The notes beneath the pieces are model-generated. The model had not been told where the DNA came from and made no database searches. It saw nothing but the letters and a program-made list of their open reading frames with translations. A stretch of DNA of 64,000 bases from Mobula birostris (taxonomy: Eukaryota): NCBI RefSeq assembly GCF_030028105.1, contig NC_092370.1:65645638-65709637 (forward strand), given 5' to 3'. Below, piece after piece: positions 1-43,046 of this stretch. The stretch's first letter is position 1; each line of letters opens with the position of its first letter. The translations under genes and the position numbers were made by a program.

Positions 1-397
1 GACCTTCTGCTGTGTGAAGGTTCACTCTCTTTAAAGACAGCCTAATCGGCCTCTGAGACAGATATCACAGGGTCACCAGTTGCAGCAGGGATCTTCACTG
101 CTGTAGTTGTATTCTCTCTTTCAAAGTGGGCATAGAAGGCATTGAGTTCATCTGGTAGTGAAGCATCTCTGCCAATCATCTTATTGGATTTCCCTTTGTA
201 GGAAGTAATGTCTTGCAAACCCTGCCAGAGTTGTTGTGGATCTGATGTCACCTCCAACCTCATTCAAAATTGTCTCTTCGCCCTTGAAATAGTCCCCCAC
301 AAATCATACCTGGTTTTCTGGTACAGGCCTGGGTCGCCAGACTTGAATGCCGCAGATCTAGCCTTCAACAGACGACGTGCCTCCTGCTTCATCCACT
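1..397 (-). mobile_element. Rex1/Babar-type LINE fragment (EN-RT linker), continues off the window edge
   Basis: Minus-strand translation WMKQEARRLLKARSAAFKSGD...LWQGLQDITSYKG...SLPDELNAFYAHFE, typical of Rex1/Babar; in-frame stop present. Confidence 0.8.
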
Positions 398-2975: not shown

Positions 2976-3107
2976 TTCTGATGAAGGGTCTTGGCCCAAA
3001 ATGTCGACTGTTATTCCCATCCACAGGTGCTGCCAGACCTGCTGAGCTCCTTCAGCACATTGTGTATATCGCTTTAGACTTCCAGTGTCTGCAGTGCCTC
3101 TTGCGTC
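2976..3107 (+). mobile_element. Penelope-like 3' repeat (pLTR) fragment with decayed hammerhead
   Basis: CTGATGA-AGGGTC-TTG-GCCC-AAAA-TGTC-GACTG followed by the ~100-nt tail shared with other copies (gacctgctgag...ccagtgtctgcag). Confidence 0.75.
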
Positions 3108-4299: not shown

Positions 4300-4407
4300 C
4301 TGCACAGCTGCTTGAATCTGATTGATGCAGTTGCACATATATTTTACATGAGATTGAACACTTTAAAGTTAGAAGACACAAGCAGTGGTCAAATTCAAAC
4401 AGCCTTA
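4300..4407 (+). CDS. Candidate exon of an unidentified gene (108 nt, phase 0-0; LHSCLNLIDAVAHIFYMRLNTLKLEDTSSGQIQTAL)
   Basis: Long polypyrimidine tract plus CAG at 4297-4299, GTGAGT donor at 4408, only one open frame, non-repetitive DNA. Peptide not recognised. Confidence 0.35.
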
Positions 4408-4565
4408 GTGAGTTATATATTTTGATATGAGCTGGTATTGTAAAGATTCCCTAAGTGCAGTGCATTGTATAGTTTGTTGTGTTGACTGCAGACGGGATAT
4501 TCCTGCCATGAGCCAAAGTTTAGATAGTATGGACTAGATTCTCTTACAATATTTTGTTTTTGCAG

Positions 4566-4613
4566 GTCCTTGGTTGGTCACTTGATAACTTGGCAGGGGA
4601 AAATTGCATTAGG
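4566..4613 (+). CDS. Weak candidate exon (48 nt; VLGWSLDNLAGENCIR in phase 0)
   Basis: Good acceptor ttttgtttttgcag; weak donor GTAGAA; in frame with 4300-4407. Confidence 0.2.
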
Positions 4614-4930
4614 GTAGAATAAAAATTAATAATAGATTCTCAGGATTAGCAAATTTAGTAAATATTCTTATGAAAAGTAAGCATGCATATCCACAAACAG
4701 AAGGCTAAATAGTACTTTAGCCATATTGCTGATAAATTCTACATATTAGATCTGATCATCTACATTTACAAAATTAAGACCATTGATAACAACATCTTGG
4801 GTTTCTTGAACCTTAATGAAGACTTACTCAAGCACTTTAGATATTAGTGAGCCACACCTCCTGGAGTAAGTCCCATTTTGCATTTCCTACTATTGATAAT
4901 GTCAAAATTGAACCCACCCAGGGCTCACAG

Positions 4931-5560
4931 GTAAGACATAAGACAGAGGGGTAGAATTAGGACATTTGCCCAGTAAGTTTACTCCACCATTCAATTATGG
5001 CTGATTTATTATCCTTCTCAATCCTATGTCTTTTCCATGTAACCTTGGACACCCTTCCTAATCAAGAAACTATCAAACTGTCACAATTAATTCTTCCGAT
5101 TTACTACCCTATGGCAAAAGAAATGCCGCCTCATCTCTGTTCTAAAGGTACATCATTCTGTTGTGCGGCTGTGCTCTCTGATTCTAGACTCATCCACTAT
5201 AGGAAACATCTTTTCCCTGTCCACTCTACATGGGACTTTAAATATTTGAAAGGTTTCAATAAGATCCCCACTCATTCTTCTAAAATCCAGCAAGTACAGG
5301 TGCACAGCCATCTAATGCTGCTCATATGTTAACCCTTTCATTCCTGGGATCAGCTTAATAAGCCTCCTCTGGACACTTTCTTCGATAAGGGGCCAAAAAC
5401 TGTTCACCATATCCCAAGTGCAGTCTGACCAGTGCCTTATAAAGCCTCAGTGTTACATCCTTGCTTTTATATTCTAATATTCATTTGCCTTCTTTACTGT
5501 GAGTCAACATGCAAGTTAACCTTTAGTGAATTCTGCACTAGGATTTCCAAGTTTCTGACA
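4931..5560 (-). mobile_element. CR1 LINE 3' fragment
   Basis: Reverse-complement CR1 tail (cataagac...agaattagg) and RT C-terminal motif LYKALVRLHLGYGEQFLAP on minus. Confidence 0.8.
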
Positions 5561-6060
5561 CCAAAGGAGTGGATGGAAAGCATGGTAGCACTAGAAAGCT
5601 ATCCCACTGCTGGATGATGGCTTATGAATGCTGAGTGGCCCTGGTAAAGCCGTTCTGGGATTCGGGCTTCTCATACTTTTATTCCACTTTTATTCCAACT
5701 ACAATCCAACTTTCCTACTCCCATTCCTTGTCATATCACCTGGGGCAAGCGGAATTACTTTTGTGGTGAAAACTAGCATAACTGCTAACTTTTGTATCTT
5801 GAGTAGACTTCTAATAATTCAAGTGTAATAGTAGTTATGATGTTGGGTTTGTATACTTGAGCACTAGATTCTTTGTATGTGGATGATATTCTGTACAACT
5901 TATGAGGCCCTAAAGCATTCCAGCTGAAGACTCTCCAAGACTGGTCATGCTTCTTGTCAAGCTGCTTCAGTGCAGTTACACCATGGCATCAACTCTTGAT
6001 TGTAGAGCATTTCCCAAGTTTGTCATGTTCATAAACGCAAGACAAATCCAATCAGAATCA

Positions 6061-6219
6061 GACTCCTCATCTTGCTCTCTCAAGTCCTGATAAAAGGGTC
6101 TCGGCCTGAAATGTCAACTGTACTCTTTTCCATAGATGTTGTCTGGCCTGCCGAGTTCCTCCAGCATTTTGTTTGGGTTGCTTGGATTTCCAGCATCTGT
6201 AGATTTTCTCTCGTTTAAG
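6061..6219 (+). mobile_element. Penelope-like pLTR fragment with decayed hammerhead, inserted in a Rex1 tail
   Basis: agtcCTGATAA-AAGGGTCTCGGCCT-GAAA-TGTC-AACTG; flanked by AATCAGAATCA at 6050-6060 and 6220-6230. Confidence 0.75.
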
Positions 6220-6332
6220 AATCAGAATCAAGTTTGATATCATTGACATATGTTGTGAAATTTGCTGTTTTATGGCAGCAGTACATTGCAATACATAACA
6301 ATAAAACTACAAATTACAATAAGTATATATTT

Positions 6333-7259
6333 TGTGACGAGAATACACATAGATTAAGATGTTAACTGGCCTGGGCTGGCATCAGCGGGATCAGCAGTTG
6401 GTCTGCCACCTGTCTTCAGGAGAAAGAGAGATAAAGAAAACAATGGAGCAGCATTTGGAGATGTTAATGAAGGGATGGGAGAGTTTAACGGAAGGAGAGC
6501 TGTCAAGATCGGCTCCCCCTTTGAACCCTGAACTGTTTGAAGTGATAGGCGATACCCCAGCAGGGGGATAAAAAGGGACAGGTTCGCTAAGGCAGGACAG
6601 ACATGAAACCCCGAGGTAACAAGACCCTGGAAGCGATGCATCTCCCACAAGTCGGTGGGAAGTTTTGGATGGCTGGTCGCGGGATCAAGCCATAGACGCA
6701 CAGGGTGGAAAGGCAGGATCGGCGGGAACCTGGTGTGCGTCCACTCTTGCCTGGGTGCCAGGTTCACCGCAGAGAAACGATCGTATCTGGAAACGGAAGG
6801 GTCACAGTCGGTGACTTCAGATGACATCACAAAGGGCTTGCACGAAAGCTGACTGCGAAGAATATCGAAGGTCATTGTGGAAGTCGTTTGAATATTCATT
6901 CGTTTTGCTCTCTCTCTCCTTACCCCACACTGTCCATCTCCCACGGCAGCGATTACTGCGAACTGAACTGAACTAAATTGAACTGAACTTTGCGTCACTT
7001 TGAAACATGCAAGTTAATCGTTGCTGGGTTAAAACTGGTCATTTACCCCTAGACAACGATAGAGCTTGATTGATCCTGTTATCTTAATACTGTGTATATG
7101 TGTGTTTATCATTGCTGAACTGTTGCATTTATTATCCTTTTGATTAGAGTACTGTGTTGCTTGTTTCTTTAATAAAACTTTCTTAGTTCTAGTAATCCAG
7201 ACTCCAACTGAGTGATCCATTTCTGCTGGTTTGGCAACCCAGTTACGGGGTACGTAACA
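6333..7259 (+). repeat. 5' LTR of element 1 (927 bp)
   Basis: TG...CA ends; AATAAA at 7171-7176; direct repeat of 10477-11234 with about 30 substitutions over ~755 aligned nt (manual count). Confidence 0.95.
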
Positions 7260-7263
7260 TAAG

Positions 7264-7281
7264 TGGGGGCTCGTCCGAGAT
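7264..7281 (+). promoter_or_regulatory. Primer-binding site, tRNA-Pro
   Basis: TGGGGGCTCGTCCGAGAT, 17/18 match to the complement of the tRNA-Pro 3' end (TGGGGGCTCGTCCGGGAT), 4 nt after the 5' LTR. Confidence 0.93.
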
Positions 7282-7356
7282 TTTGAACGCTAAATTTGGG
7301 ATAGAGTAAATGATTGGGTTAAAATTCCCGAAAGAAAGAAAAGACAAACAGCAGAA

Positions 7357-9850
7357 ATGGAGGTTGAGGGATTTATAAAGGCGCCGACCTTGGAGGCATT
7401 AGAGGATGCCAGGAAAGCGGAATTGGTAGCTGTGGCCAAACGGTTGAATCTTGCTAAGGGGAAGTCGACAATGAGGAGAGAGGAGATACACAGAGCTATC
7501 GTAGAGCACTATGTATCTAAAGGTGTGTTTCCCCAAGGGGAGCTGGAGGTGGTGTCTATTGAAAAACCTGCTAGAGACGCGGTACAGGTGCAGCTTGAAA
7601 AACTGAGACTCGAGCACGAGTTCTGGGTACGGCAGTTAGAACACGAAGAGAAGCAGTTAGAAAGGCAGGAGAGAGAGTTAGAAAGGTGGGAGAAAGAGAG
7701 AGAGTTAGAAAGGTGGGAGAAAGAGACAGAGTTAGAAAGGCAGCAGAGGGAGAGAGAGACAGTTGGAGCGAGAAGAGAGGCAGTTGGAGAAACAGAGGGA
7801 AAGGGAATTTGAGCTGGAGAAGTTAAAGATAAGGGCAGAGCAGGGGCCCATGCCGAACCAAGGTGGAGGGTTCAGGGTGACCCAGGAGGTTAGGCTGGTT
7901 CCCCCATTTGATGATACCGACGTGGATCAGTACTTTCTCCATTTCGAAAAAGTTGCTACAAGTCAGGACTGGCCGAGGGATAAGTGGGCTGTTTTGCTTC
8001 AGAGTGTACTGAAAGGGAAAGCCCAACAAGCTTACTCAGCTTTGTCCGCAGAAGGTGCCCAGAGGTATGAGGTGGTGAAAGAGGCCATCCTCAGGATTTA
8101 TGAGTTGGTCCCGGAGACATACCGGCAGAGGTTCCGGAATGCGAGGAAGCAGTGGGACCGCACGTATTTAGAGTTTGCCCGTGAGATGCAGACATATTGT
8201 GAGCGTTGGTTCGCCTTGAAGGGGGTAGAGGGGGATTATGACAGACTGCTACAGCTGATCCTGATTGAGCAGTTTAAAGGTTGTGTCCCTGAGGGTATGA
8301 GACCCTACCTAGATGAGAAAGAGGCAGCCACGTTAGCCGCAACTGCTAAGTTAGCGGATGAGTATGCGTTGACGCATAAAATGAAGTTTGCCCCGAGTAA
8401 AGGCTACCAGAAGGGTAGTCAGGACGGCGGGGAGAGTCCGCCAGAAAAGTCAGAAAGTAAGCCGGGGACTAGTGAGAAGGATAAGGTAGACCGGGAGCAG
8501 TCTGGTAGGAAGTCTCCTGGGGTCGTCTGTTATAATTGTGGGAAAGTCAGACACTTTGCGTCCAGGTGCTTTGCCCCAAAGAAGGAGACGGGAAAAGGAA
8601 AAACGGCGATTTTGACTGACTGTATCGAGCTGGTAAATGAACCGCTGGGAGAGGACAGGTCTGCCAAAGTTCAGGAAGGGCGTGAGAGGTTTATCTCGGC
8701 CGGATTGGTGTCAGTGAAGAAGGAGTTAAAACCAGTTCCAGTGTGGATCTGGAGAGACACGGGAGTGTGTCAGTCACTGATACCGAAGAGTGTATTAGAG
8801 TTTAGCTCAGAGACCCAGACTGGGGAGGTCAAGGTCAAAGGTATTGGGGAAGGGACAGAGGCAGTCCCTTTGCACCAGATACACTTACAAAGCAACCTGG
8901 TCTCTGGACTAGTCACCATCGGGGTGAGGCCCGAATTACCGATGAAAGGCGTGGAAATCTTGCTCGGTAATGACCTCGCCGGGGGAATCGTGTTCACAGC
9001 CGTGAGATTGACAGGTCAGCCTGCCAGCGTTGAGGCCTCGCCCATGGACTCACAGGTTCATCACGGGACTGTGGAAATAAATTTAGCTGAGATGTTTCTG
9101 CCAGCCTTGTACGAGAAGGGGGTAGAAATTGAAAAGAAGAAGTGTGGTGAAACAAGAGGTAGTGAGGGAGCTGAGACAGACTTAGCATTAGCCAGGAAAG
9201 AATTTGTGCAGGCGCAGGAGCGAGACGAGGGGCTGATGGTTTTGGCGGAGACAGCTCTCTCTGACGCAGAATTAACAAGGGAACCAGTAGGCTATTGTGT
9301 GGAGGAGGAAGTGCTAAGGAAGAAAGGGAGACCAAGTACCGTACCCGCAGATGAGGAATGGAGGGTGGTGCAAAAGAGTTATGGGGATGAGATTTTTAAC
9401 CTGGCCCACAAGGTACCCCTCGGTGGACATGTTGAGGTACTGGAGGAAACAGCTGGTGGTATCATGAAAGAGGTTTACCGGCTGCACCGGAGGAAGAATG
9501 TTATTGATTATGGCAGACGCGAACTGAGACGGTCACAGGCTTTTGATATGCTAACAAACCTAGTCGGTGTTAGCGCGGAAATCAATGAGGCTAGGGTCCC
9601 CCTGATAAGAGAAAAAAACCATTTTGAAAAGGTGAATATGGTATCGACCAGATGGGAGAAGGCTATTGTTTTGGCCAGCTCTGCTGATAAGGTCTCTCCC
9701 TTAATCCCCGAACAAAGCAACTCTTTAGGAGAAGTAATTAAACGGCTCACACACGTGTGTTTGATTGTCCTGAGGCGATGCAAAGAACTGGGACGTTGGG
9801 TGGTGTTTGTTATGCTAGGTAGCCTAGTGAGCAACAACCCTATAGAATGA
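7357..9850 (+). pseudogene. gag-protease-(relic integrase) polyprotein of element 1, one frameshift at ~7750-7760
   Basis: ORFs 7357-7812 and 7763-9850: coiled-coil repeats, capsid VRLVPPF...YFLHFEKVA...LILIEQFKGC, knuckle CYNCGKVRHFASRC, protease RDTG, IN N-terminus AHKVPLGGH. Confidence 0.88.
7645..7800 (+). repeat. Imperfect 21/27-bp tandem repeats encoding the Gag coiled coil (ERELERWEK)
   Basis: Repeated gagagagttagaaaggtgggagaaa units. Confidence 0.8.
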
Positions 9851-10360
9851 GTAATTCAGTGATGAAAGGGCTGACGAACACAGAGGTGTGTATTGGCAAT
9901 GTAATACGGCTGTCTGAAGCCAGCTTGATAGTGAACCTTGAAAAAAATGAGTTCGGCCACACGAAGGTCACTTACCTGGGAATTGTGGTGACACAGGGGC
10001 AGCTGGCAGCAATGCAAGCTAAAGTGCGGGCTATCTCTGACATCCCAACCCTGACAGACAAGAGGGCCCTCAGAAGGCTCTTGGAGATGGTGGGGTACTG
10101 TAGGAAGTTCTGCAATAACTCTGCGGTTACTACCCCTCCCCCTCCTACTAAGCCCTTGCGAGAGAAAACTAAGTCGGAATGGGACGATCCTTGCTATTGT
10201 GTCCGGGACGAAACCCAATGAGAGGTTACATTGATCGCAATTCATCGGTGTTTTTGGCCACTATGAAGTTTGCTAAATTGGAGCCTGGTCTAAGGGATTA
10301 TTAATAACACATATAAAAGGAACAGAAAATGTGATGGCTGACTGTCTGTCAGGTGTTGAC
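9847..10360 (+). pseudogene. RT thumb and RNase H remnants of element 1
   Basis: ORF 9847-10221 (VNLEKNEFGHTKVTYLG...LEMVGYCRKF) with YIDD replaced by CIGN; HIKGTENVMADCLS at ~10310-10350. Confidence 0.85.
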
Positions 10361-10463
10361 AACTTCAAATTCACTGTATTAGCCAAATAGCTGATAAAGA
10401 TGTGTATTTGTGTGTATCAAATAATGTATTCATGTTTGTAATTTTTACCCTGGTAAAAATCCT

Positions 10464-10476
10464 AAAAGGTGGGAAG
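10464..10476 (+). promoter_or_regulatory. Polypurine tract of element 1
   Basis: AAAAGGTGGGAAG directly abuts the TG of the 3' LTR. Confidence 0.85.
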
Positions 10477-11234
10477 TGTGACGAGAATACACATAGATTA
10501 AGATGTTAGCTGGCCTGGGCTGGCCCCAGTGGGATCAGCAGTTGGTCTGCCACCTGTCTTCAGGAGAAAGAGAGATAAGGAAAACAATGGAGCAGCATTT
10601 GGAGATGTTAATGAAGGGACGGGAGAATTTAACGGAAGGAGAGCTGTCAAGATTGGCTCCCCCTTTGAACCCTGAACTGTTTGAAGTGATAGACAGGCGA
10701 TACTCCAGCAGGGGGATAAAAAGGGACAGGTTCGCTAAGGCAGGACAGACACGACAGCCCGAGGTAACGAGACCCTGGAAGCGGTGCGTCTCCCACAAGT
10801 CGGTGGGAAGTTTTGGACGGCTGGTCGCGGGATCAAGCCATAGACGCACAGGGTGGAAAGGCACGATCGGCGGGAACCTGGTGTGTGTCCACCCTTGCCA
10901 GGGTGCCAGGTTCACCGCAGAGAAACGATCGTATCTGGAAACGGAGGGGTCACGGTCGGTGACCTCAGGTGACATCACAAAGGGCTCGCACGAAAGCTGA
11001 CTGCGAAGAATATCGAAGGTCTGTGTGGAAGCCATTTGAATATTCATTCGTTTTGCTCTCTCTCTCCTTCCCCCACACTGTCCATCTCCCATGGCAGCGA
11101 TTACTGCGAACTGAACTGAACTAAATTGAACTGAACTTTGTGTCACTTTGAAACTTTCTTAGTTCTAGTAATCCAGACTCCAACTGAGTGATCCATTTCT
11201 GCTGGTTTGGCAACCCAGTTACGGGGTACGTAAC
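10477..11234 (+). repeat. 3' LTR of element 1 (758 bp; lacks 172 bp present in the 5' LTR)
   Basis: Direct repeat of 6333-7259 lacking 7007-7178, with a 4-bp extra GACA; terminal A not resolved against the following (TA)n. Confidence 0.95.
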
Positions 11235-11279: not shown

Positions 11280-11410
11280 GAAAACAAGTGAAAGCCTACA
11301 GATGTTGGAAACTTAAGCAACACACACAAAATGCTGGAGGAACTCAACAAGTCAGGCAGCACCAATGGAAAAGAGTAAACGGTTGACGTTTTCGGCCGAA
11401 TCCTTTTGGT
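11280..11410 (-). mobile_element. Penelope-like pLTR fragment, truncated inside the hammerhead
   Basis: acacacaaaatgctggaggaactca...gttgacgttttcggccg; flanked by AGGGAAAA(A)TATT at 11267-11279 and 11411-11422. Confidence 0.75.
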
Positions 11411-13394: not shown

Positions 13395-13628
13395 AAACAC
13401 AAGAGATTTTGCAGATGCTGGAAATCCAAAGTAACACACAAAAATTGCTGGAGGAACCCAGCAGGTCCGGGAATATCTATGGAGAGGAATAAAGAGTCAA
13501 TGTTTTGGGCAGAGACCCTTCATTGAGGTCTCTCATTAGGTCCTGGTGCAAAATATTGACTCTTTATCCTTTTTCATAGATGTTGCCTGACCTGCTGAGT
13601 TCCACTAACATTTTGTGTGTGTTACTCT
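13395..13628. mobile_element. Inverted pair of Penelope-like pLTR fragments (hairpin centred on the ribozyme)
   Basis: Left arm gtaacacacaaaaattgctggaggaacccagcaggt and right arm acctgctgagttccactaacattttgtgtgtgttac are reverse complements. Confidence 0.8.
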
Positions 13629-13919: not shown

Positions 13920-16900
13920 AATAACCTCTTCCCCAATGTCAATAAAACGAGAAAGATGGCTATCGACTTCAAGAAAACCCATACCACTCACAACCTCTTC
14001 ATACTGATGGCTCAGCAGTGGAAACTACAAGGAACCCTCCTGGCAGTGCACATCTCACACAATCTTTCATGGTCTCAGAACAGACACCTATAGTCAAAAA
14101 AGCTCAGCACCACCTCTACTTTCTGAGCAGGCTGAAGAGAGCTGGTCTATGTGCACCAGTACTCATGGCCTTTTACAGAAGTGCAGTGGGGAGCATCCTA
14201 ACATGTTGCATCACTGTGTGCTACAGAGACTGCTCTGGAGTGGACAGGAGGGCTCTACAATGGGTAGTTAAAACAGTACAGTGCTTCATTGGCACCAGTC
14301 TACCCACCATCAAGCACATATTTACAGAAAGATAATGGAAAAGAAACAGCAACAACATGAAAGATCCCATCAATCCTGCAGAGAGATTGCAGGCAACTGC
14401 AGGAAACATAAAGTTGTGGTGGTAGGGGATTTTAATTTTGCATATATTGATTGGGACTCCCATACTGTTAGGGGTCTAGATGGCTTAGAGTTTGTAAAAT
14501 GTGTTCACAAAAGTTTTCTAAGCCAATATATAGAGGTACCAACTAGAGGGGATGCAATATTGGATCTCCTGTTAGGAAACGAGTTAGGACAAGTGACGGA
14601 AGTGTGTGTAGGGGAGCACTTTGGTTCCAGTGATCATAACACCACTAGTTTCAACTTGATCATGGACAAGGATAGATCTGGTCCTAGGGTTGAGTTTCTT
14701 AACTGGAAGAAGGCCAAATTTGAAGAAATGAGAAAGAATCTAAAAAGCGTGGATTGAGATAGGTTGTTCTCTGGCAAGGATGTGATCAGTAAGTGGGAAG
14801 CCTTCAAAGGAGAAATTTTGAGAGTGCAGAGCTTGTATGTTCCTGTCAGGATTAAAGGCAAAGTGAATAGGAATAAGGAACCTTGGTTCTCAAGGGATAT
14901 TGCAACTCTGATAAAGAAGAAGAGAGAATTGTATGGCATGTATAGGAAGCAGGGAGTAAATAAAGTGCTTGCGGAGTATAAAAAGTGTAAGAAAATACTT
15001 AAGAAAGAAATCAGGAGGGCTAAAAGAAGACATGAGGTTGCCTTGGCTGTCAGAGTGAAGGGTAATCCAAAGAGCTTTTACAGGTATATTAAGAGTAAAA
15101 AGATTGTAAGGGATAAAATTGGTCCTCTTGAAGATCAGAGTGGTCGGATATATGCAGAACCAAAAGAAATGGGGGAGATCTTAACTGGGTTTTTTGCATC
15201 TATATTTACTAAGGAAACTGGCATGAAGTCTATGGAATTAAGGGAAACAAGTAGTGAGATCATGGAAACTGTACAGATTGAAAAGGAGGAGGTGCTTGCT
15301 ATGTTGAGGCAAATTAAAGTGGATAAATCCCCAGGACCTGACAGTGTTGAAATGGCAGGGGCCCTGGCAGATATATTTAAAATGTCGGTGTCTACGGGTG
15401 AGGTGCCGGAGGATTGGAGAGTAGCTCATGTTGTTCCGTTGTTTAAAAAAGGATCAAAAAGTAATCCGGGAAATTGTAGGCCCGTAAGTTTGACGGTGGT
15501 AGTGGGTAAGTTATTGGAGGGAGTACTAAGAGACAGAATCTACAAACATTTGGATAGACAGGGACTTATTTGGGAGAGTCAACATTGCTTTGTGCGTGGT
15601 AGGTCATGTTTGACCAATCTATTGGAGGTTTTCGAGGAGGTTACCAGGAAAGTGGATGAAGGGAAGGCAGTGAATGTTGTCTACATGGACTTCAGTAAGG
15701 CCATGGACAAGGTCCCGCATGGGAGGTTAGTTTGGAAAATTCAGTTGCTAGGTATACATGGAGAGGTGGTAAATTGGATTAGACATTGGCTTAGTGGAAG
15801 AAGCCAAAGAGTGGTAGTAGAGAATTGCTTCTCAGAGTGGAGGCCTGTGACTAGTGGTGTGCCACAGGGAGCAGTACTGGGTCCATTGTTATTTGTCATC
15901 TATATCAATGATCTGGATGATAATGTGGTAAATTGGATCAGCAAATTTGCTGATGATACAAAGATTAGAGGTGTAGTGGACAGTGAGGAAGGTTTTCAGA
16001 GCCTGCAGAGGGACTTGGACCAGCTGAAAAAATGGGCTGAAAAATGGCAGATGTAGTTTAATACAGACAAGTGTGAGGTATTGCACTTTGGAAGGACAAA
16101 CCAAGGTAAAACATACAGGGTAAATGGTAAGGCACTGAGGAGTACAGTAGAACAGAGGGATCTGGGAATACAGATACAAAACTCCCTAAAAGTGGCGTCA
16201 CAGGTAGATAGGGTCATAAAGAGAGCTTTTGGTACGTTGGCCTTTTTAATCAAAGTATTGAGTATAAGAGCTGGAATGTTATGATGAGGTTGTATAAGGC
16301 ATTGGTGAGGCCGAATCTGGAGTATTGTGTTCAGTTTTGGTCACCAAACTACAGGAAGGATATTAATAAGGTTGAAAGAGTGCAGAGAAGGTTTACAAGG
16401 ATGTTGCTGGGACTTGAGAAACTCAGTTACTGAGAAAGGTTGAATAGGTTAGGACTTTATTCCCTGGAACATAGAAGAATGAGGGGAGATTTGATAGAGG
16501 TATATAAAATTATGATGGGTATAGATAGAATGATTGCAAGCAGGCTTTTTCCACTGAGGCAAGGGGAGAAGAAAACCAGAGGACATGGGTTAAGGGTGAG
16601 GGGGGAAATGTTTAAAGGGAACATTGGGGGGGCTTCTTCACACAGAGAGTGATGGGAGTATGGAATGAGCTGCCAGATGAGGTGATAAATGTGGGTTCTT
16701 TTTTAACATTTAAGAATAAATTGGACAGATACATGGATGGGAGGTGTATGGAGGGATATGGTCCGTGTGCAGGTCAGTGAGACTAGGCAGAAAATAGTTC
16801 GACACAGCCAAGAAGGTCCAAAAGGCCTGTTTCTATGCTGTGGTTTTTCTATGGTCTCTATGGTTTCTAATCCTGCATATTTATCCCACTCCCATCAGGG

Positions 16901-20149: not shown

Positions 20150-20312
20150 ATCTGGCTTCTTATCCCCATCCTTTCCAGTCCTTATGAAGGGTCTCAGCCT
20201 GAAATGTCACTGTTTATTCCTTTCAGTAGACGCTGTCTGACCTGCGGGGTTCTTCCAGCATTTTGTGTGAATTACTCTGGATTTCCAGCTCCCGCAGAAT
20301 CTCTTTGTGTTT
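20150..20312 (+). mobile_element. Penelope-like pLTR fragment with decayed hammerhead
   Basis: ccagtc-CTTATGA-AGGGTCTCAGCCT-GAAA-TGTC-actg plus shared tail. Confidence 0.75.
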
Positions 20313-23795: not shown

Positions 23796-25915
23796 GAACA
23801 TAGAACATGAAATAGTACAGCACAGTACAGGCCCTTCGGCCCACAGTGTTGTGCCGACCCTCAAACCCTGCCTCCCATATAACCCCCCACCTTAAATTCC
23901 TCCATATACCTGTCTAGTGGTCTCTTAAATTTCACTAGTTTATCTGCCTCCACCACTGACTCAGGCAGTGCATTCCACGCACCAACCACTCTCTGAGTAA
24001 AAAACCTTCCTCCGATATCCCGCTTGAACTTCCCACCCCCTACCTTAAAGCCATGTCCTCTTGTATTGAGCAGTGGTGCCCTGGGGAAGAGGCACTGGCT
24101 ATCTACTCTATCTGTTCCTCTTAATATATTGTACACCTCTATCATGTCTCCTCTCATCCTCCTTCTGTCCAAAGAGTAAACCCCTAGCTCCCTTAATCTC
24201 TGATCATAATCCATACTCTCTAAACCAGGCAGCATCCTGGTAAATCTCCTCTGTACCCTTTCCAATACTTCCACATCCTTCCTATAGTGAGGCGACCAGA
24301 ACTGGACACAGTACTCCAAGTGTGGCCTAACCAAAGTTTTATAGAGCTGCATCATTACCTTGCGACTCTTAAACTCTATCCCTCGACTTATGAAAGCTAA
24401 CACCCCATTAGCTTTCTTAACTATCCTATCTACCTGTGAGGCAACTCTCAGGGATCTGTGGACATGTACCCCCAGATCCCTCTGCTCCTCCACACTACCA
24501 AGTATCCTGCCACTTACTTTGTACTCTGCCTTGGAGTTTGTCCTTCCAAAGTGTGTCACCTCACGCTTCTCCGGGTTGAACTCCATCTGCCACTTCTCAG
24601 CCCACTTCTGCATCCTATCAATGTCTCTCTGCAGTCTTCGACAATCCTCTAAACTATCCACAATACCACCAACCTTTGTGTCGCCTGCAAACTTGCCAAC
24701 CCACCCTCCTACCCCCACATCCAGGTGGTTAATAAAAATCATGAAAAGTAGAGGTCCCAGAACCGATGCCTGCAGTCACAACCCTCCAATCGGAATGTAC
24801 TCCCTCCACCACGACCCTCTGCCTTCTGCAGGCAAGCCAATTCTGAATCCACCTGGCCAAACTTCCATCCATCCCATGCCTTCTAACTTTCTGAATAAGC
24901 TTACCGTGTGGAACCTTGTCAAATGCCTTACTAAAATCCATGTAGATCACATCCACACCACTGCCCTCATCTATATGCCTGGTCACCTCCTCAAAGAACT
25001 CTATCAGACTTGTTAGACACGATCTGCTCTTCACAAAGCCATGCTGACTGTCCCTGATCAGACCATGATTCTCTAAATGCCCATAGATCCTATCTCTAAG
25101 AAACTTTTCCAACAGCTTTCCCACCACAGACGTAAGGCTCACTGGTCTATAATTACCCGGACTATCCCTACTACCTTTTTTGAACAAGGAGACAACATTC
25201 ACCTCCCTCCAATCCTCACCATTCCCATGGACAACAAGGACATAAAGATCCTAGCCAGCGGCTCAGCAATCTCTTCCTTCGCCTCATGGAGCAGCTGGGA
25301 AATATTCCATTAGGCCCATTGGACTTATCCATCCTAATGTATTTTAATAACTCCAACACCTCCTCTCCCTTAATATCAACATGCTCCAGAACATCAACCT
25401 CACTCATATTGTCCTCACTGTCATCAAGTTCCCTCTCACTGGTGAATACCAGAGAGAAGTATTCATTGAGGACCTTGCTCACGTCCACAGCCTCCAGGCA
25501 TGTCTTCCTATCTTTATCTCTAATTGGTCCTACCTTCACTCTTGTCATCCTTTTGTTCTTCACATAATTGAAGAATGCCATGGGGTTTTCCTTTACCTTA
25601 CTCGCCAAGGCCTTCTCATGCCCTCTTCTTGCTCTTCTCAGCCCCTTCTTAAGCTCCTTTCTTGCTACCCTATATTCCTCAGTAGACCCATCTGTTCCTT
25701 GCTTCCTGAACCTCATGTATGCTTACTTCTTCTACCTGACTAGATTTTCCACCTCACTTGTCACCCATGGTTCCTTCACCCTGCCATTCTTTATCTTCCT
25801 CGCTGGGACAAATTTAGCCCTAACATCCTGCAAGGGATCCCTAAACATCAACCAAATGTCCATAGTACATTTCCCTGCAAAAACATCATTCCAGTTCAGA
25901 CCCACAAGTTCTAGC
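23796..25915 (-). mobile_element. CR1 LINE, 5'-truncated ORF2
   Basis: Minus ORFs 25216-25716, 24729-25202 and 23861-24742 ([40 protein letters not shown]); tail at ~23796. Confidence 0.95.
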
Positions 25916-26657: not shown

Positions 26658-26875
26658 GAGACACAGGAGATTCTGCAGATGCTGGAAATTTTGAGCAACA
26701 CACACAAAATAATGGAGGAACTCAGCAAGTCAGGCACCATCTACCGAGGGAAATGAACTGTCAATGTTTTTGATCAATAGAAAGATATCATACCTCAAAA
26801 CATCAACGGATTATTATCCAACATAGATTCTGCCTGACTTATTAGTTCTTCCAGTATTTTGTGCGTCTTGCTCTT
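26658..26875. mobile_element. Second inverted pair of Penelope-like pLTR fragments
   Basis: gcaacacacacaaaataatggaggaactcagcaagtcaggca ... tgcctgacttattagttcttccagtattttgtgcgtcttgc. Confidence 0.7.
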
Positions 26876-27079: not shown

Positions 27080-27400
27080 CAGAATTGAACAACAGCAGAA
27101 AGACTTTGATGAGTAAATGCTGAATAAAATAGACAATAATTTCTTTCCATCCATTTGATCTTTGAGATTAGACTGAATGGGTTGGATATGGCCAGATTAG
27201 ATTTGTCTTGTTTTTTGTACACAGGAAATGGGAGAACATGTTTTACCTTGTTGCATAATTTCCATTGTACTGGAACAGCATAGCTTAGGTACAGTTGGGC
27301 TGTAGCACAGTTCTTCTGCACAATGGTGCTGTTGCTCCCAAAATCTAGTTGCAAACAGCTTCTTTTTGGTGCCATCTAAAATACATCAAGTTTGAAGCTT
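27080..27400 (-). mobile_element. Ancient CR1-group LINE remnant
   Basis: PVYKKQDKSNLAISNPFSLIS resembles the RT N-terminal motif PVHKKxDKSNPxNYRPISLLS. Confidence 0.55.
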
Positions 27401-27666
27401 CTATGATGCGAAGAACCACAAGGAAAGATTGTGATATACCATCGCACTCTACATCATTGCCAGAGTTTCTTGTAATTCTTGGGTGTATCATAAAATTCGA
27501 CATCATATTTTTGAACCATCATTCGATTGATGGAGGAATTTTTTTTTCCCATTGTAAATTTGTTGGACCCATTCTGAGTAGATATATGGCCTTCTGCCTC
27601 CACTTTCTCAAAGCTGTAGGAATACCATCTGGTTTCTGCTGAAGCATGAATTACAATTGCTTGTAG

Positions 27667-27704
27667 CATTCCTGACGAAGGGTCTCAGCCCGAAACGTTG
27701 ACTG
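27667..27704 (+). ncRNA. Minimal type I hammerhead ribozyme (best-preserved copy)
   Basis: Stem I CATTC/GACTG (one mismatch), core CTGACGA 27672-27678, extra A, stem II GGGT-CTCA-GCCC, GAAA 27692-27695, palindromic ACGT stem III, cleavage triplet GTT (family consensus GTC). Confidence 0.75.
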
Positions 27705-27803
27705 TACCTCTTCCTCGAGATGCTGCCTGGCCTGCCGCGTTCACCAGCAGCTTTGATGTGTGTTGCTTGAATTTCCAGCATCTGCAGATTTCCTCGTGTT
27801 TGA
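27668..27803 (+). mobile_element. 136-bp Penelope-like pLTR insertion with 9-bp TSD
   Basis: GCTTGTAGC at 27659-27667 and 27804-27812; several CpGs retained, so relatively young. Confidence 0.85.
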
Positions 27804-27930
27804 GCTTGTAGCGTTATTGGTTGCTGTTTTATTTGCGTGTTTTTTAATACCGTTTATTGTAAGTTTGTTTTCTGTTCCCTAGGGGGGGAAAAATGATTAG
27901 ATTCCTCTTAAAAGAGGATTAAAAATAAAT

Positions 27931-27970
27931 ACTGACTTACCTGTGAGAAAAAAATGGAAAATAGAATGAC
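27931..27970 (-). promoter_or_regulatory. Candidate recursive splice site (AG|GT ratchet point)
   Basis: Minus strand gtcattctattttccatttttttctcacAG|GTAAGTcagt: strong acceptor fused to a consensus donor, in unique DNA. Confidence 0.5.
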
Positions 27971-28410
27971 ATCCCGCTCTCCTTTCCTCTGTCAGCTTGT
28001 TATTTCTTTCATTGAAAACCGTTTGTTACTTTTAAATATCTTGGGTAATGCATTGAGAGCCTGCACATCGTGCCATAGTTGTACATTGACAGCTTAGTTA
28101 TTTTATTTAATCATTTGATTCTAGTTCATTGGCCTGGATCAATCTGGAGAATTTGATGTTCACTTTTGGCTTATTGTTTCCTGATGATATACAGACCTTA
28201 AATGTATTTAACCTCAATTAAACCCATTTAATGTCTGATTTGTTTTGTTGTGGTGCCTTCAAACCAGATCTTATTTCCACATATTGGAATTCTCGAAATT
28301 ATTTCTAGTCTTTCCATCATACTGCTTGGGGAAATAAGGGAAGGATGCCTTTATTAATCTGACTGGAGTCCTTTTTCTTTGTGGATATCATAGCCTCCTA
28401 TATCTTGTAG

Positions 28411-30182: not shown

Positions 30183-30815
30183 TGCACACAAATTGCTGGA
30201 GGAACTCAGAAGGTCAGGCAACCTCTGTGGAGAAGAATAAGCAGTTTATGCTTCAGCTGAGACCCTTTGTTAGGACTAGAAAGGAAGGATGAAGAAGCCT
30301 TCCTTAGGACTGGAAAAGACGGGAAGGAGTACAAGCTTACAGGTAATAGGTAAAGCCAGATGAGGGGGAAGGTGGATGGATGGGTGAGAGGAGATAGTGC
30401 AAGGTTGGGAGGTGAGAGATGGAAAAGGTAAAGGGCTGAAGAAGAAGGAATCTGAGAGGAGAGAAGACCGGACCATGGGAGAAAAGGAAGAAATAGGAGG
30501 GCACTAGGGAGTTGATAGGCAAGTGAGGAGAAGAGGGGGGATAAGAGGGGAGCTAGAATGGGGAATGGAAAAAAGAGAAGGGGAAGTGATGAGAAATTAC
30601 CAGAAGTTAGAGAAATTGATGTTCATGCCATCAGTTTGGAGGACACCTAGATGGAATATGATGTGTTACTTCTCCAACCTGATAGTGACCTCATCGTGGC
30701 AGCAGAGGAGACCCATATGGACCAACATATGAAAATGGGAAGTGGAATTAAAATGTGTGGCCACTGGGAAATCTCACCTGCTATGCAGACAGAGTGATGG
30801 TACTCAATTAAGCAG
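30183..30815 (-). mobile_element. Penelope-like element 3' end: GIY-YIG endonuclease C-terminus, pyrimidine-rich UTR, decayed hammerhead, tail
   Basis: Minus translation FPVATHFNSTSH...GLLCCHDEVTIRLEK*HIIFHLGVLQTDGMNINFSNFW* (stop 30599-30597) matches the PLE GIY-YIG C-terminal pattern PVAxHFN...RxxEQHLIFRLGxLQPxGxN. Confidence 0.8.
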
Positions 30816-38015: not shown

Positions 38016-38887
38016 CCTTCCTCCAAAAAAAGAAATTTTGGTCCTTTTAGGAGCAAAATTTTAACAATTAACTATTTACCAAAAAAATACAAATGTATAA
38101 AATTTACAACATACACAGTATACACAGTATTATCATACAGCATTTTGCAAACTAATATACAGTAGGATTGTTACAAAGGTTAAAATACCACTCCATAAAA
38201 AATTTACATTGTGCATTTAACATCTAGATAGACAATCAGAAATCACATTCCCTTTACCTTTAATACGAGTTATCAAAATATTATACTCCTGTAACATCAA
38301 ACTTCAATTTAGTAATCTTCTATTTTTGTTTTTCATCTTATTCAAAAACACTAACAGATTATGATCGGTGTAAACTATGAGTGGTTTCTGAGTGATACCA
38401 ACATACACTTCAAAATGTTGTAAAGCCAAAACAAGAGATAATAATTCCTTTTCTATAGTTGAATAATTTCTTTGATGGGTATTAAATTTCTTAGAAAAGA
38501 AAGCTAGCAGACAATCAACTTCATCATCCTCATCCCTTTGAAGTAACACTGCTCCTACAGCTTCATCACTAGCATCTACAGCTACTGAAAATGCTTTTTC
38601 AAAGTCAGGGGATTTGAGCACAGGTTGACTACATATTATAGTTTTCAATTTATCAAATGCTTCCTGACAAGGTTCTGTCCAAACAAACTTTTCATTTTTC
38701 TTCAAGAGGTTAGTTGATGGAAGAGCAATGTTCACAAAATGTTCACAAAATTCTTACAAAATTTTCAGTAATATCCTACCATACCCAAGAATCTTCTGAG
38801 AGTTTTCTTACTAGTTGGAGTGGGTACTTCTAAAATTGCCTGAACAGGAGCTAATTTTCCTTGACCCACAACATAACCAAGGTAGGT

Positions 38888-39113
38888 TACCATGGCATGA
38901 CCAAATTCACTTTTAGCTAAGTTAACAGTTAAGTTAGCTTTTGAAAGAGTCTCAAATAGTTTCTCCACTATTAGCAGGAATATGTGCTTTCCAAGTATTA
39001 TACCATGGCATGACCAAATTCACTTTTAGCTAAGTTAATAGTTAAGTTAGCTTTTGAAAGAGTCTCAAATAGTTTCTCCACTATTAGCAGGAATATGTGC
39101 TTTCCAAGTATTA
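38888..39113. repeat. 113-bp tandem duplication inside RT
   Basis: 38888-39000 and 39001-39113 are identical except one base (aacagtt/aatagtt). Confidence 0.95.
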
Positions 39114-40647
39114 TTTCCTGTAAATAAATCATCAATATAGGCATCTGTATCTTTTAACCCATGAATCGTACTATTAATCATCCTCTGGAAAGTACCTGGT
39201 GCATTCCTCATCCCAAATGGAAGAACATTATATTCATATAACCCAGATGGGGGTTACCAATGCAGAAATCTCCCTACCTCTATCTGTCAATGGAACACAC
39301 CAATAACCTTTTAACAAATCAATCTTTGTCAGGAAGTTTGCTTGTCCAACTTTATCCACACAATCATCCACCCTAGGGATTGGATATGCATCAATTTTTG
39401 TCACAGCATTCACCTTCCTGTAATCTGTACAAAACCTAATATTATTATCTACCTTAGGCACCATAACACACAATGAACTCCAATTCAAATTAGAAGGTCT
39501 AATAATATTATTCTCTAACATATACTTAATTTCTTGTTCAGCAAGTTCACATTTTTCCCTGTTCATCTGATACAGATGTTGTTTTATAGGTTTTCAGTCT
39601 CCGACATCTACATCATGTGAAGCTACAGTGGTTCTTCTAGGAACGTCTGGAAATAAATCCCTATATTTAAAGATTAACTGTTTCATCTGTTCTCTCTGCT
39701 CTGGCTGTAAATGAGCTAATTTCTCTTCAGTATTTTCCAGAATTGTTGAAGTTGATAACCTGGCTGAAATAATGTTGGGTTTAAAATGAGTTTCAGATGA
39801 ATCATCCATTAAGTTTTTAGAAAGACCAGACTCATTATTGACCACAACAGTCATAGTAGCAGCCTCTATCTCATCATACAGTTTTATCATATTTATATGA
39901 CACAGCTGTGTTGGCTTTCTTCGATCTGGGGTTGTTATCACATAATCCACATCATTTACTTTAGATTTAATCTCATAAGCACCATGAAATTTAGCTTGTA
40001 ATGGTTTGTTTGCACCAGGAAAAGAACCAACACCTTACCAACAGGCTTAAATGACCTCATTCTAGCTTCCTTATCATACCAAGTTTTCATCTTCTCCTGA
40101 GCCAATTTTAACTTTTCCTTAGCTCAGGTACAAGCTTTACATAATTTTTCCTTGAATTTTAAAACATAATCCAGCAAATTAGTGTGTACCTCTTTATTAA
40201 TCCACTGTTCTTTCAACAAGGCCAAAGGTACTCAAACTCTATGCCCAAACACAAGTTCAAAAGGACTAAAGCCTAATAATTCCTGTACTGCCTCCCGTAC
40301 TGCAAAAAAGTAGTAAATATACGCCTTCATCCCAATCCTTTTCTTTTTCCACACAATACGTCGTAATCATATTTTTGAGGGTAGAATGGAATCTCTCCAA
40401 GGCTCCTTGCAATTCTGGATGATATGCAGATGAGGTAATCTGTTTTGCTCCCAGTTTATAAACTATCTGCTGAAACAATCCAGACATAAAATTACTACCT
40501 TGATCCGATTGTATTTCCTTAGGCAACCCAAAATAAGTAATGAATTTTATAAGAGCCTTTGTCACAGTTTTGGCTGTTATATTCCTAAGAGTTATTGCCT
40601 CTGGTAACCTAGATGCTGTGCACATGATGGTCAGCACATATTGATGT

Positions 40648-41565
40648 TGTCATGTACCCCATGACGGGTTAAAGAACCAGCAGAGATGGAAAACACTTTG
40701 GAGTCCAGTATTGGTATTAAATAATAATAATATTTATTTGTAACTACGCAATACAGTAATATAAAATCAAATATATAAAACAGGTTAGCAATGATTATAT
40801 ATAAGTAAGTATATCAGTAATTGTGGAAATATATGAAAATCAAGCTTCTTCAAGTCTAGGGGTAAAAAGATACAGTCTTACGATGATGAGTAAAGTTCAG
40901 TTCAGTTCGTGGTATTGAGTTGAGTAGTGATGGAGAGAGAGGGGGGAGAGATTTGAGTCTTCAATTGAGCTGACCCCGTCAATCTTCTCGTTGTCCTCTG
41001 AAATTCTTTAAAAGTCACCGACTATTGACCACAACAAAGGGGACACTTTTTCTGTGGTGGAGCTATCAATCCAGGCAAGGGTGGACACATGGACAACTCC
41101 CCACCGGTCACTCCTTTTCCTCACTGCAAGAACCACTGATCAATCCACCTGATCGATTCTCCAAAAAAGAACACCTTTTCTGCGAGCACAACAAAGCTTA
41201 TTCAGTGTCCAAAAACATGTGCCTGAGGTCTATGTCATCTGACCTCCTACTTATCTCACCGTACTGAGTACCAACTGTCATTCAAGTAATTCCTCCTTCC
41301 TGTTTCTGTGTAAGAAATGTACAAGCAGGCAAATGTTCTTGGAAGTATAAACAAGCTGCCGAAAAATCATAACATCGGTTTTCCAGCAAATAACGCTGCC
41401 CTCAGTCACCATAGCGACTTACAAGCTGCTCGGTGCCCTCTCTCTCTCCAACTCAGCAGAAATCCAAAAGTTCCTCATGCCTTAAAGTGACAGTCAAAAA
41501 GTTAGTCTTCGTCTCTCTCTCTCTCTTTCTTTCTCTCTCTCTTTTCAAAACAACATGGTGTTAAA

Positions 41566-41603
<38 letters not shown>

Positions 41604-41667
41604 CAAAACCACAGTTCATAGGGATAATCGAGCACAGTTCATAGGGGTAATTCAGGACCCCGTCACA
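40648..41667 (-). mobile_element. Solo LTR (1020 bp) inserted in the integrase of element 2, 4-bp TSD ATGT
   Basis: TG...CA ends; ATGT at 40644-40647 and 41668-41671; removal restores KTGHQYVLTIMC; (CT)n at ~41512-41600. Confidence 0.92.
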
Positions 41668-43046
41668 ATGTCCAGTTTTATTTTTTTGCAATGGGCCTAC
41701 ACAATCTATAATAATTTTGGAAAACAGCTCACCAAATGCTGGAATCGGTTGCAGTAGGGCCACTGGAGTAACTTGATTAGGTTTACCCACAATTTGACAT
41801 GTATGACATGTTCTGCAAAATGTCATCACATCTTTTCTTAAACTAGGATAGTAAAAATGTTTAGAAACCTTGTTCATAGTTTTCTTTACACCTAGATGGC
41901 CACCCAAAGGCATACTATGAGCCATAGTTAAAATCTCATTTTGATAAACTTTAGGAACTACTACCTGGTGATTAACTTACCATTCCTCACTTGCAGGAAT
42001 TGTAGGTGATCTCCACTTTCTCATTAATACTCCCTTTTCAAAATAATATCCTGATGCCACTTTCTCAATCTCACTATCTGGAAGAGCTTGTTCCTTTAAT
42101 TTGACCATTTCAGGATCTCTAACCTGCTCTGCTATCATCTCCTTCTGAGATAAAGATAAATCTTCATGGTCAGACTTACTACCAAAATCCTGATCAAATA
42201 GTGAACGTAAGAAAGTTTCTGACACATCCTCAAAATTCACATCCCAAGTTTAACAGTCATGGGTAACAACCTCAGCCTCTACTTCAGTCTTTTTAGCCAT
42301 AGCTCGGGTTACTACACAGGAAAAATCTGTGTTAGAATCCCTCTGAGGTTTCTCAGAAATAGGCTTTATTGTCAAATGCACTTCAGGAAAAACTCGTCCA
42401 TCTGCTAAGTAATTCCCTAATAAAAGAGAAACATCATTCATGGGTAAACTGGGTTGTAGTCCTACTTTAAAAGCCTCTGTAACTAACCCTGACCTTAAAT
42501 TTACTCTATGCAAATGTACCAGCATAAGGACACTCCCAACTCCTCTTATATAGTTTACCTCAACAATGTCAGACTCATCACTAAACTTTAGAACACTGTC
42601 TAACATTAGTGATTGGGAAGCTCCAGTATCTCTAAAGATTCTTATTGGTACTGGATTGGATCCCTGTTTCAAGGATACAAATCCCTCGGTTATAAAGTGT
42701 TCATATCCCCTCTTAACTTGGTCAGACTCTGACAAAACTTCATTGGTATTTATCAAACTCTGTGGATTTACAGGTGTTTCAGTATGCTGCACACAAGCAT
42801 CTGGTACTGCTTCCTTCTCTTTCTTTTTCAATTGAAAACAGTTAGCTATTACATGTCCAGGTTTCACAATAATTACAAATAAAACCAAAATGTCTTTCCT
42901 TCACGCCTCCCTTCATCCTTACCTTTCTTACTAAGTTCAGATTTAATTTCTGGTTTACCTTGACTCTCTGCGCTATTTTTCCTTTTAAAAAAGTCCTACC
43001 TGGAGAAAATTTATTCTTATGAATTAAAGCATACTCATCAGCTAAT

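What the first reader, a model, noticed from the sequence alone, without database searches (positions are those of the whole stretch)
27659..27812. Near-intact minimal hammerhead ribozyme carried by a 136-bp insertion with its own TSD
Seen: CATTC-CTGACGA-A-GGGT(CTCA)GCCC-GAAA-CGTT-GACTG at the very start of a short element flanked by a 9-bp duplication. Across copies the consensus is CAGTC-CTGATGA-AGGGTCTCGGCCC-GAAACGTC-GACTG. Established: CUGANGA/GAAA/NUH is the hammerhead core, and Penelope-like elements carry minimal type I hammerheads whose tiny palindromic stem III (ACGU) is thought to work as a dimer. Inference: this is a young, possibly still self-cleaving copy, moved as a SINE-sized unit, and it would place a cleavage cassette in any + strand transcript here.
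Basis: partly seen in the sequence, partly recalled or inferred. Interest (0 to 1): 0.72.

Follow-up and report, generated by a model that had tools for sequence, protein, structure and literature searches.

The report
Penelope stump with hammerhead cut fossils
This is an ordinary truncated end-piece of a very abundant Penelope-type jumping gene whose small self-cutting RNA motif is likely crippled in this copy, but about 30 other copies in the genome are joined exactly at the predicted cut site, which likely records the motif cutting RNA in living cells.

Summary
The motif and a target-site duplication (TSD) are real, but this is no SINE. It is the 5'-truncated end (pLTR plus tail, 133 bp) of an autonomous Neptune-like Penelope element (RT, Zn-finger linker, GIY-YIG; at least 70,183 exact 31-mers). 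The TSD is 12 bp with one CpG-type mismatch, so three of five 5' bases of stem I are target DNA. With C17U, no intact partner in the window and no host gene found, this copy is likely inert. Family level: 19 of 100 copies begin 2-5 nt before the core (likely a transcription start), none at the cut site. In 92 genome-wide direct-repeat junctions into that end, 31 (29 loci, several subfamilies) join exactly at the predicted cut nucleotide, against 11 matches at the next position. This fits reverse transcriptase jumping onto the ribozyme's 5' product, evidence of in vivo cleavage that the papers read lacked. Against it: microhomology slips elsewhere are as common, and these junctions favour the weaker-folding variant. 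The scan had already noted the 5' hotspot and cut-site starts in other genomes; this junction class was not in the notes retrieved.

The parts
27659..27670 (+). Left TSD copy, 12 bp; A at 27668 is a likely CpG transition; T at 27670 is shared with the element's -2 base (microhomology)
27671..27803 (+). 5'-truncated Neptune-like PLE end: pLTR segment from -1 (numbering: C of CTGACGA = +1) through the tail to +132
   Evidence: 91% to the pLTR of tandem copy L184
27667..27671 (+). Apparent stem I 5' strand; 27667-27669 likely target-derived; U-C mismatch at 27669
27672..27679 (+). Hammerhead core CUGACGA plus the unpaired A between positions 9 and 10.1
   Evidence: motif features from PMC4209133
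27680..27691 (+). Stem II, 4 bp, G10.1-C11.1 kept, 4-nt loop with one CpG-type change at 27687
27692..27699 (+). GAAA core, ACGU palindrome (27695-27698, dimer stem III) and N17 = U at 27699 (C in 27 of 28 in-register relatives); predicted cut after 27699
27700..27704 (+). Stem I 3' strand
27767..27803 (+). About 36-nt PLE 'tail' between the two 3'-end clusters of the family (+90..99 and +120..139)
   Evidence: tail defined in PMC11167929 and PMC8557442
27804..27815 (+). Right TSD copy, 12 bp
2978..3094 (+). Older decayed pLTR end, GAAA broken
6083..6219 (+). Older decayed pLTR end, core broken
11282..11399 (-). Older decayed pLTR end
13395..13521 (-). Older decayed pLTR end, core lost
20176..20312 (+). 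Older decayed pLTR end (nearest same-strand copy, 7.5 kb upstream), core broken
26661..26769 (-). Older pLTR end truncated inside the motif
30185..30773 (-). Older PLE 3' piece: 171 bp matching the element's ORF end/3' region (30603-30773) and a broken motif (30185-30278)

Best explanation
This is a 133-bp, 5'-truncated end of a Neptune-like Penelope retrotransposon flanked by a 12-bp target duplication, and its minimal hammerhead is likely inert at this site. Shown: it matches the pLTR plus tail of an autonomous RT/GIY-YIG element, ends at the tail end (+132) and starts in the family's 5' hotspot. Inferred mechanism: the element's endonuclease nicked the target, RT started at the internal site at the tail end (as shown in vitro for the anole Poseidon) and copied uncleaved RNA to its 5' end. 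That end is likely a pLTR transcription start at the A of -4 (minor start at -8). The cDNA was then joined by 1-nt microhomology, trimming stem I. In the active element the hammerhead sits in the 5' leader (long-ORF ATG at +167) and likely cleaves a minority of transcripts as a dimer or with protein help. The likely record is 29 loci where RT jumped from the RNA 5' end onto a 32-36-nt RNA ending at C17 (about 55% for this last step).
For: Element identity: GIY-YIG and RT frames upstream of long copies; tandem pLTR-ORF-pLTR copy L184, unit 3,724 nt, ATG at +167; Pfam GIY-YIG E 1.3e-4, RVT_1 E 9.7e-4; CX4CxxC linker. Architecture in 100 position-ordered copies: 3' ends 39 at +90..99 and 53 at +120..139; inverted partner upstream in 44. 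5' ends: 19 at -2..-5, 0 at +29 (binomial p 1e-13). Hand tally of 100 of 8,009 matches: 25 end at -3, 31 at -4, 11 at -5, 3 at -6, 6 at -7; deconvolved, about 65 true ends at -3/-4. Of 19 hotspot copies, 10 join an inverted half and 7 of the other 9 have a 12-16-nt TSD abutting the element. This copy: stem I pair probabilities about 0.4 vs about 0.75; dimer -9.1 vs -17.9 kcal/mol. Junctions: 31 of 92 at +28 by hand; by script 27 of the 46 fetched loci, on five haplotype backgrounds. At most 4 exact joins per position at +43..+69 (hand tally, 100 of 118 listed). The upstream unit starts within -8..+16 in 44 of 46 loci.
Against: No empty site was seen, so the 12-bp TSD rests on parsimony (one search did not bridge the locus). 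No transcription start was measured, and the -4/-8 ends coincide with the AG dinucleotides of a splice-acceptor-like tract. GUU still obeys the NUH rule and target bases restore 2 stem I pairs, so low activity is not excluded. For the cleavage record: slips with 2-3-nt microhomology at +9 and +13 are as common as +28. +31 (11 matches) and +35 (8) also peak. The +28 class is depleted of the better-folding G10.1-C11.1 variant (2 of 31 vs 16 of 61, Fisher p 0.027; vs background 2 of 27 vs 18 of 87, p 0.15). The short upstream unit also fits recopying of the same RNA. A cap-derived G is not supported in the control junctions (17 of 48 G before the join vs 33% expected; hand tally).
Confidence: 0.85

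Rival explanations
1. One reading: a SINE-sized mobile unit carrying a still-active hammerhead that would cut host + strand transcripts.
For: Core and stem II intact; GUU is a permitted NUH triplet; target bases restore two stem I pairs; thousands of copies start at nearly the same point (8,009 cores with non-element sequence at -9).
Against: Same sequence is the terminus of coding elements, and 45 of 100 copies extend upstream. Single copy without an intact partner. Single min-HHRs showed no cleavage (PMC4209133) and the anole motif needed its protein (PMC11167929). No host gene found.
Confidence: 0.07
2. The +28 junctions are template slips set by RNA or cDNA structure (base of stem I, or pairing of +25..+28 with +3..+6) and record no cleavage; the family ribozyme may be silent in vivo.
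For: Other positions also peak (+31, +35; slips at +9 and +13). The class is enriched in the weaker-folding U11.1 variant. CGTC-AG is the reverse complement of the core's first six bases. Frangieh et al. found no RNA-seq ends at the cut.
Against: +28 to -4 has no microhomology. The one-switch product expected from that self-complementarity occurs once among 75 matches vs 8 for the +28|-4 form. The site was predicted beforehand from hammerhead chemistry. Starts at +29 are also raised: 21 of 100 vs 0-5 at +27, +28 and +30..+34, although +24..+26 have 10-18 and 9 of the 21 have GAC/GACT microhomology.
Confidence: 0.4
3. The -4/-8 hotspot is not a transcription start but comes from splicing-related processing at tandem AG acceptors, or from an RT stop at the edge of stem I.
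For: Long copies carry a branch-point-like motif, a pyrimidine tract and two AGs at -8/-7 and -4/-3. In D. virilis Penelope the intron ends at helix I and lies 46 bp after the start.
Against: Ends include the AG, whereas an exon would begin after it. No upstream exon is joined in 30 hotspot loci (direct matches only in two long copies and one old-copy target). TSDs abut the element. The exact stem I snap-back junction is 1 of 100.
Confidence: 0.3

Closest known systems
Minimal type I hammerheads (min-HHR) in pLTRs of metazoan PLEs, including Xena, Poseidon and Neptune of fishes (Cervera and De la Pena 2014, PMC4209133; parts 1-2 of 4 read, supplements not seen)
   Same: Core, extra nucleotide between 9 and 10.1, G10.1-C11.1, palindromic 15.2-16.2, 4-5-bp stem I, location in both pLTRs, thousands of dispersed single motifs from truncated PLEs.
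   Different: Stem II is 4 bp (7-8 bp in their Schistosoma family); at least 41,613 exact cores here (+34) vs about 4,000-9,000 motifs reported for coelacanth and Xenopus; this copy has lost half of stem I; the dominant subfamily has G10.1-U11.1.
EN+ PLEs of the Neptune/Nematis type (Craig et al. 2021, PMC8557442; 12 of 25 passages read)
   Same: RT plus C-terminal GIY-YIG, CX2-5CxxC linker, partial tandems, inverted 5'-truncated partner, 30-40-bp tail, hammerhead in the pLTR.
   Different: No tree built; a sharp 5' end hotspot at the ribozyme edge is not described in the passages read.
Poseidon element PAc of Anolis carolinensis (Frangieh et al. 2024, PMC11167929; parts 1-2 of 4 read, supplements not seen)
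   Same: Two internal RT start sites bounding the tail; uncleaved RNA is the main template.
   Different: Other clade; there the ORF starts in stem II, here at +167; they found no RNA ends at the cut site, whereas here rare genomic junctions fall on it.
Non-LTR retrozymes (bioRxiv 10.64898/2026.07.22.740005, part 1 of 5 plus passages; PMC7229834, listing only)
   Same: Type I hammerhead, PLE ancestry, non-coding short units.
   Different: Retrozymes are tandem arrays; this is a single TSD-flanked truncation product. The 2-3-unit, 32-36-nt mini-tandems at other loci are shorter than the 51-972-bp retrozyme consensus range quoted.

Membership tests
EN+ Penelope-like element, Neptune/Nematis type | RT domain in a single ORF upstream of the 3' pLTR | tested here: met
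   YIDD-bearing RT frames in many copies; Pfam RVT_1 E 9.7e-4, below the curated cut-off; the copies seen carry frameshifts
EN+ Penelope-like element, Neptune/Nematis type | C-terminal GIY-YIG endonuclease | tested here: met
   Pfam GIY-YIG E 1.3e-4, 22.6 bits = cut-off; frames
EN+ Penelope-like element, Neptune/Nematis type | CX2-5CxxC linker between RT and EN | tested here: met
   C-x4-C-xx-C in the frames; feature
EN+ Penelope-like element, Neptune/Nematis type | pLTR tandem, inverted 5'-truncated partner, 30-40-bp tail | tested here: met
   L184 tandem; inverted partner 44 of 100 and bimodal 3' ends
EN+ Penelope-like element, Neptune/Nematis type | RT phylogeny places it in Neptune rather than Nematis | not tested
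EN+ Penelope-like element, Neptune/Nematis type | Spliceosomal intron in the pLTR (some PLEs) | tested here: inconclusive
   acceptor-like tract before the motif; no spliced copy in 30 loci; contig runs uninformative
Minimal type I hammerhead (min-HHR) | CUGANGA, GAAA, NUH, extra base before 10.1, G10.1-C11.1, palindromic 15.2-16.2 | tested here: met
   (N17 is U in this copy)
Minimal type I hammerhead (min-HHR) | Continuous 4-5-bp stem I, in this copy | tested here: not met
   2 bp + U-C mismatch + 2 bp; met in the family: 31 of 100 copies have the whole motif intact
Minimal type I hammerhead (min-HHR) | Mg2+-dependent cleavage as dimer or with protein | not testable with these tools
   needs bench work; genomic junctions are indirect
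Rfam hammerhead families | Match to a covariance model | tested here: not met
   0 hits at gathering score and at E<=10 on 701 bases
SINE | Self-contained unit distinct from the end of a coding element | tested here: not met
   45 of 100 copies continue upstream into a PLE ORF
SINE | Pol III internal promoter or tRNA/5S/7SL head | not tested
   no dedicated scan; Rfam found no such RNA
Non-LTR retrozyme | Tandem array with a hammerhead in each unit | tested here: not met
   single copy between TSDs

The most novel reading that the evidence does not exclude
The genome holds a fossil record of Penelope hammerhead cleavage in the germline. pLTR transcripts start at the first base of stem I (-4 or -8). 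Some are cut at C17, and the element's RT, having copied one RNA to its 5' end, jumps onto the 32-36-nt 5' product of its dimer partner, leaving +28|-4 mini-tandems at about 30 independent loci. The hammerhead would then act as a leader-removing switch on the mRNA, not as the cutter that frees the transposition template.
Probability: 0.55. Interest if true: 0.62.

Novelty: new member of a known kind. Interest (0 to 1): 0.4.

Why it matters
The copy itself is routine and probably inert. The family data touch an open question. [quoted passage not shown] If the +28 junctions are cleavage fossils, they give in vivo evidence, map the RNA's 5' end to the ribozyme's first paired base, explain why these genomes are strewn with SINE-sized PLE stumps, and offer a purely computational assay (junction spectra) for ribozyme activity across PLE subfamilies and species.

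Tried and rejected
Rfam scans: nothing. Fold of the 154-nt region: no hammerhead fold, z -0.19. An apparent second 5' hotspot 1.4 kb upstream was only the reference copy's own truncation. One search hit the wrong part of the element and was not used. The 3'-end column was a script error, redone. 3' ends at +28 followed by plain flank (RT starting on the cut end) are rare: only 75 cores genome-wide are disrupted at +25..+33, mostly by small indels. Splicing: no exon joined in 30 hotspot loci. Sequencing runs: no RNA holder listed; the contigs laid showed no interpretable start, splice or empty site. Cap-derived G: three TSD-bounded cases and 7 loci of the '+27,G' class fit, but the control junctions show no G excess. 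Single-source amplification of the +28|-4 junction: rejected, its haplotypes mirror the family background. Host gene: 40 open frames in unmasked DNA gave no Pfam hit above cut-off, one PDB search was empty, the Atlas gave no result. Lunse et al. on dimer cleavage of PLE hammerheads is not held; known only through a review passage and reference list, so its text and supplements may bear on novelty.

Full report
Numbering: the C of CTGACGA is +1 (window 27672); the base before it is -1; the predicted cleaved nucleotide N17 is +28 (27699).

Observation. The motif is present as described, and the exact 9-bp duplication is real. It is the only intact core of its family in the 64 kb; seven older relatives have broken cores. 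Rfam does not detect it, and the 154-nt region does not fold into a hammerhead (z -0.19). The duplication extends to 12 bp (27659-27670 / 27804-27815) with one CA/CG mismatch, the usual CpG transition. The 9-bp reading needs a transversion and two chance matches (about 0.09) and is not excluded, because no empty site was seen.

What it is. The genome (G000, 4.0 Gb) has 9,297 exact matches to a 33-letter core pattern, 70,183 to a 31-letter downstream pattern and 41,613 to a 26-letter core; reversed controls gave 0. Longer copies continue upstream through a pyrimidine-rich UTR into a GIY-YIG endonuclease and an RT. L184 is a pLTR-ORF-pLTR tandem (unit 3,724 nt including an internal duplication; ATG of the long frame at +167). 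Pfam: GIY-YIG at cut-off, RVT_1 below cut-off. The C-x4-C-xx-C linker marks the Neptune/Nematis type according to Craig et al. (passages). I took the first 100 matches along contig C1, all 100 analysed. Their 3' ends cluster at +90..99 (39) and +120..139 (53), and 44 have an inverted partner upstream. That is the tail and inverted-pLTR architecture of PLEs. The finding is thus a truncated PLE end, not a SINE. The host is probably a cartilaginous fish; this rests on recall and on earlier scan notes, not on a call.

This copy's ribozyme. It differs from the in-register majority at -5 and -3 (target-derived), +16 and +28 (CpG-type), and a few further sites; its nearest relative is 97% identical. 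Stem I pairs at about 0.4 against about 0.75 in an intact C11.1 relative. The modelled double hammerhead is -9.1 against -17.9 kcal/mol, and in both cases a non-catalytic dimer is more stable. GUU is allowed by the NUH rule (passages); that U17 is slower than C17 is recalled. Single min-HHRs did not cleave and dimers cleaved weakly (PMC4209133); the anole motif needed its protein (PMC11167929). No host gene was identified. 31 of the 100 copies have the entire motif intact, so this copy is not special. It is likely inert.

5' hotspot. Of 100 copies, 45 extend at least 58 nt upstream, 19 begin at -2..-5 and none at +29 (p about 1e-13). Among 100 listed of 8,009 cores with a non-C at -9, my hand tally of match length gives 8, 5, 25, 31, 11, 3, 6 and 11 for -1 to -8. 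Correcting for chance matches leaves about 65 true ends at -3/-4, almost none at -5/-6 and a small second peak at -7. Ten of the 19 hotspot copies join an inverted half; 7 of the other 9 have a 12-16-nt TSD that abuts or overlaps the first element bases. A sharp template end is implied. The A bases at -4 and -8 lie in initiator-like contexts (consensus recalled), and Penelope has an internal pLTR promoter (PMC2377424, passages), so a transcription start is the likely cause. The same AGs also end a splice-acceptor-like tract, but no joined exon was found in 30 loci. Combined with internal RT initiation, a start at -4 predicts exactly the SINE-sized stump seen here.

Junctions at the cut site. 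A pattern for direct repeats joining the motif to the hotspot gave 92 matches, all listed. Hand tally by the last base of the upstream unit: +28 clear 31 (29 loci), +27 followed by G or joined to -3 10, ambiguous +28/+29 or +27/+28 12, +31 11, +32 3, +33 2, +34 6, +35 8, +26 or less 9. The 12-nt gap limit undercounts joins beyond +31 into -8. I fetched 46 of these loci, chosen for the +27..+29 classes. By script 19 are +28|-4, 5 are +28|-8, 3 are +28|-9 and 7 are +27,G; the +28|-4 loci lie on five haplotype backgrounds in about the family's proportions. The upstream unit starts within -8..+16 in 44 of 46; L292 and L309 are exceptions on reading. Control at +43..+69: about 65 loci over 27 positions, at most 8 per position and at most 4 exact joins (hand tally, 100 of 118 listed). 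With one anchor over +9..+39 (100 of 234 listed), +28 is the top blunt join (7 exact), but microhomology slips at +13 (about 9) and +9 are as common. The fold-back product expected from self-complementarity occurs once against 8 of the +28|-4 form among 75 matches. Starts at +29 are also raised (21 of 100 listed of 1,987; 0-5 at +27, +28 and +30..+34; 10-18 at +24..+26; 9 of the 21 have 3-4-nt microhomology). Against my reading, the +28 class is poor in the better-folding C11.1 variant (2 of 31 vs 16 of 61, p 0.027). The simplest account is an RT jump from the 5' end of one RNA onto the 3' end of a cleaved 32-36-nt leader; I put it at 55%. Such events are rare (about 30 among tens of thousands of copies), in line with uncleaved RNA being the main template.

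Comparison and novelty. Element and motif are a new member of a described kind (PMC4209133, parts 1-2 of 4; PMC8557442, passages; PMC11167929, parts 1-2 of 4; retrozyme preprint, part 1 of 5 and passages; PMC6765202, passages; no supplements seen). Searches returned no paper whose title or abstract start reports genomic junctions at PLE hammerhead cut sites. The library lacks most subscription papers, and Lunse et al. could not be read. Earlier scan notes from other genomes already mention the 5' hotspot and starts at the cut site, and judge single seams at the cut to be slips; these are unchecked AI notes, not support.

Verdict. The finding as written is real but ordinary, and this copy is probably dead. 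The interest lies in the family's junction spectrum, which makes the question of in vivo cleavage directly testable. Interest 0.40.

Noticed in passing
L146, L184 and other long copies, -30..-3 before the core: Branch-point-like motif, pyrimidine tract and two tandem AGs directly before stem I, resembling the intron end at helix I in D. virilis Penelope; no spliced copy seen.
   Followed up: partly
family-wide, position +20 (window 27691): The dominant subfamily has U at 11.1 (67 of 87 in-register copies), breaking the conserved G10.1-C11.1 pair and folding worse; this copy keeps C.
   Followed up: partly
L228, L291, L298, L303, L307: Three-unit mini-tandems of 32-36 nt, each unit a near-complete hammerhead; natural same-strand dimer candidates and possible seeds of retrozyme-like arrays.
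   Followed up: partly
loci: Joins into -8/-9 are more often on the subfamily with C at +46 (6 of 8) than joins into -4 (2 of 19), suggesting subfamily-specific start sites.
   Followed up: partly
L184, L189, L225: About 200-bp tandem duplication in the N-terminal part of the PLE ORF in several long copies, absent from L223 and L224.
   Followed up: no
window about 6300-11200: LTR-type element with a SCAN-domain ORF (7736-9850, Pfam E 5.5e-12) and similar ends at about 6350-7010 and 10500-11160.
   Followed up: no
window 14758-16056, 23861-24775, 50913-51848, about 38800-42900: LINE-type RT fragments and a broken Gypsy-like pol on the minus strand.
   Followed up: no
window 27100-27441 and 27841-28400: Both flanks are present at about 92-94% identity in contigs of another organism (run X24); the contigs do not bridge the insertion.
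   Followed up: no
L007, L016, L024 and this copy: TSDs of several short copies end in ATT, the triplet the anole PLE endonuclease prefers in vitro; these copies were selected by similarity to the query, so the sample is biased.
   Followed up: no
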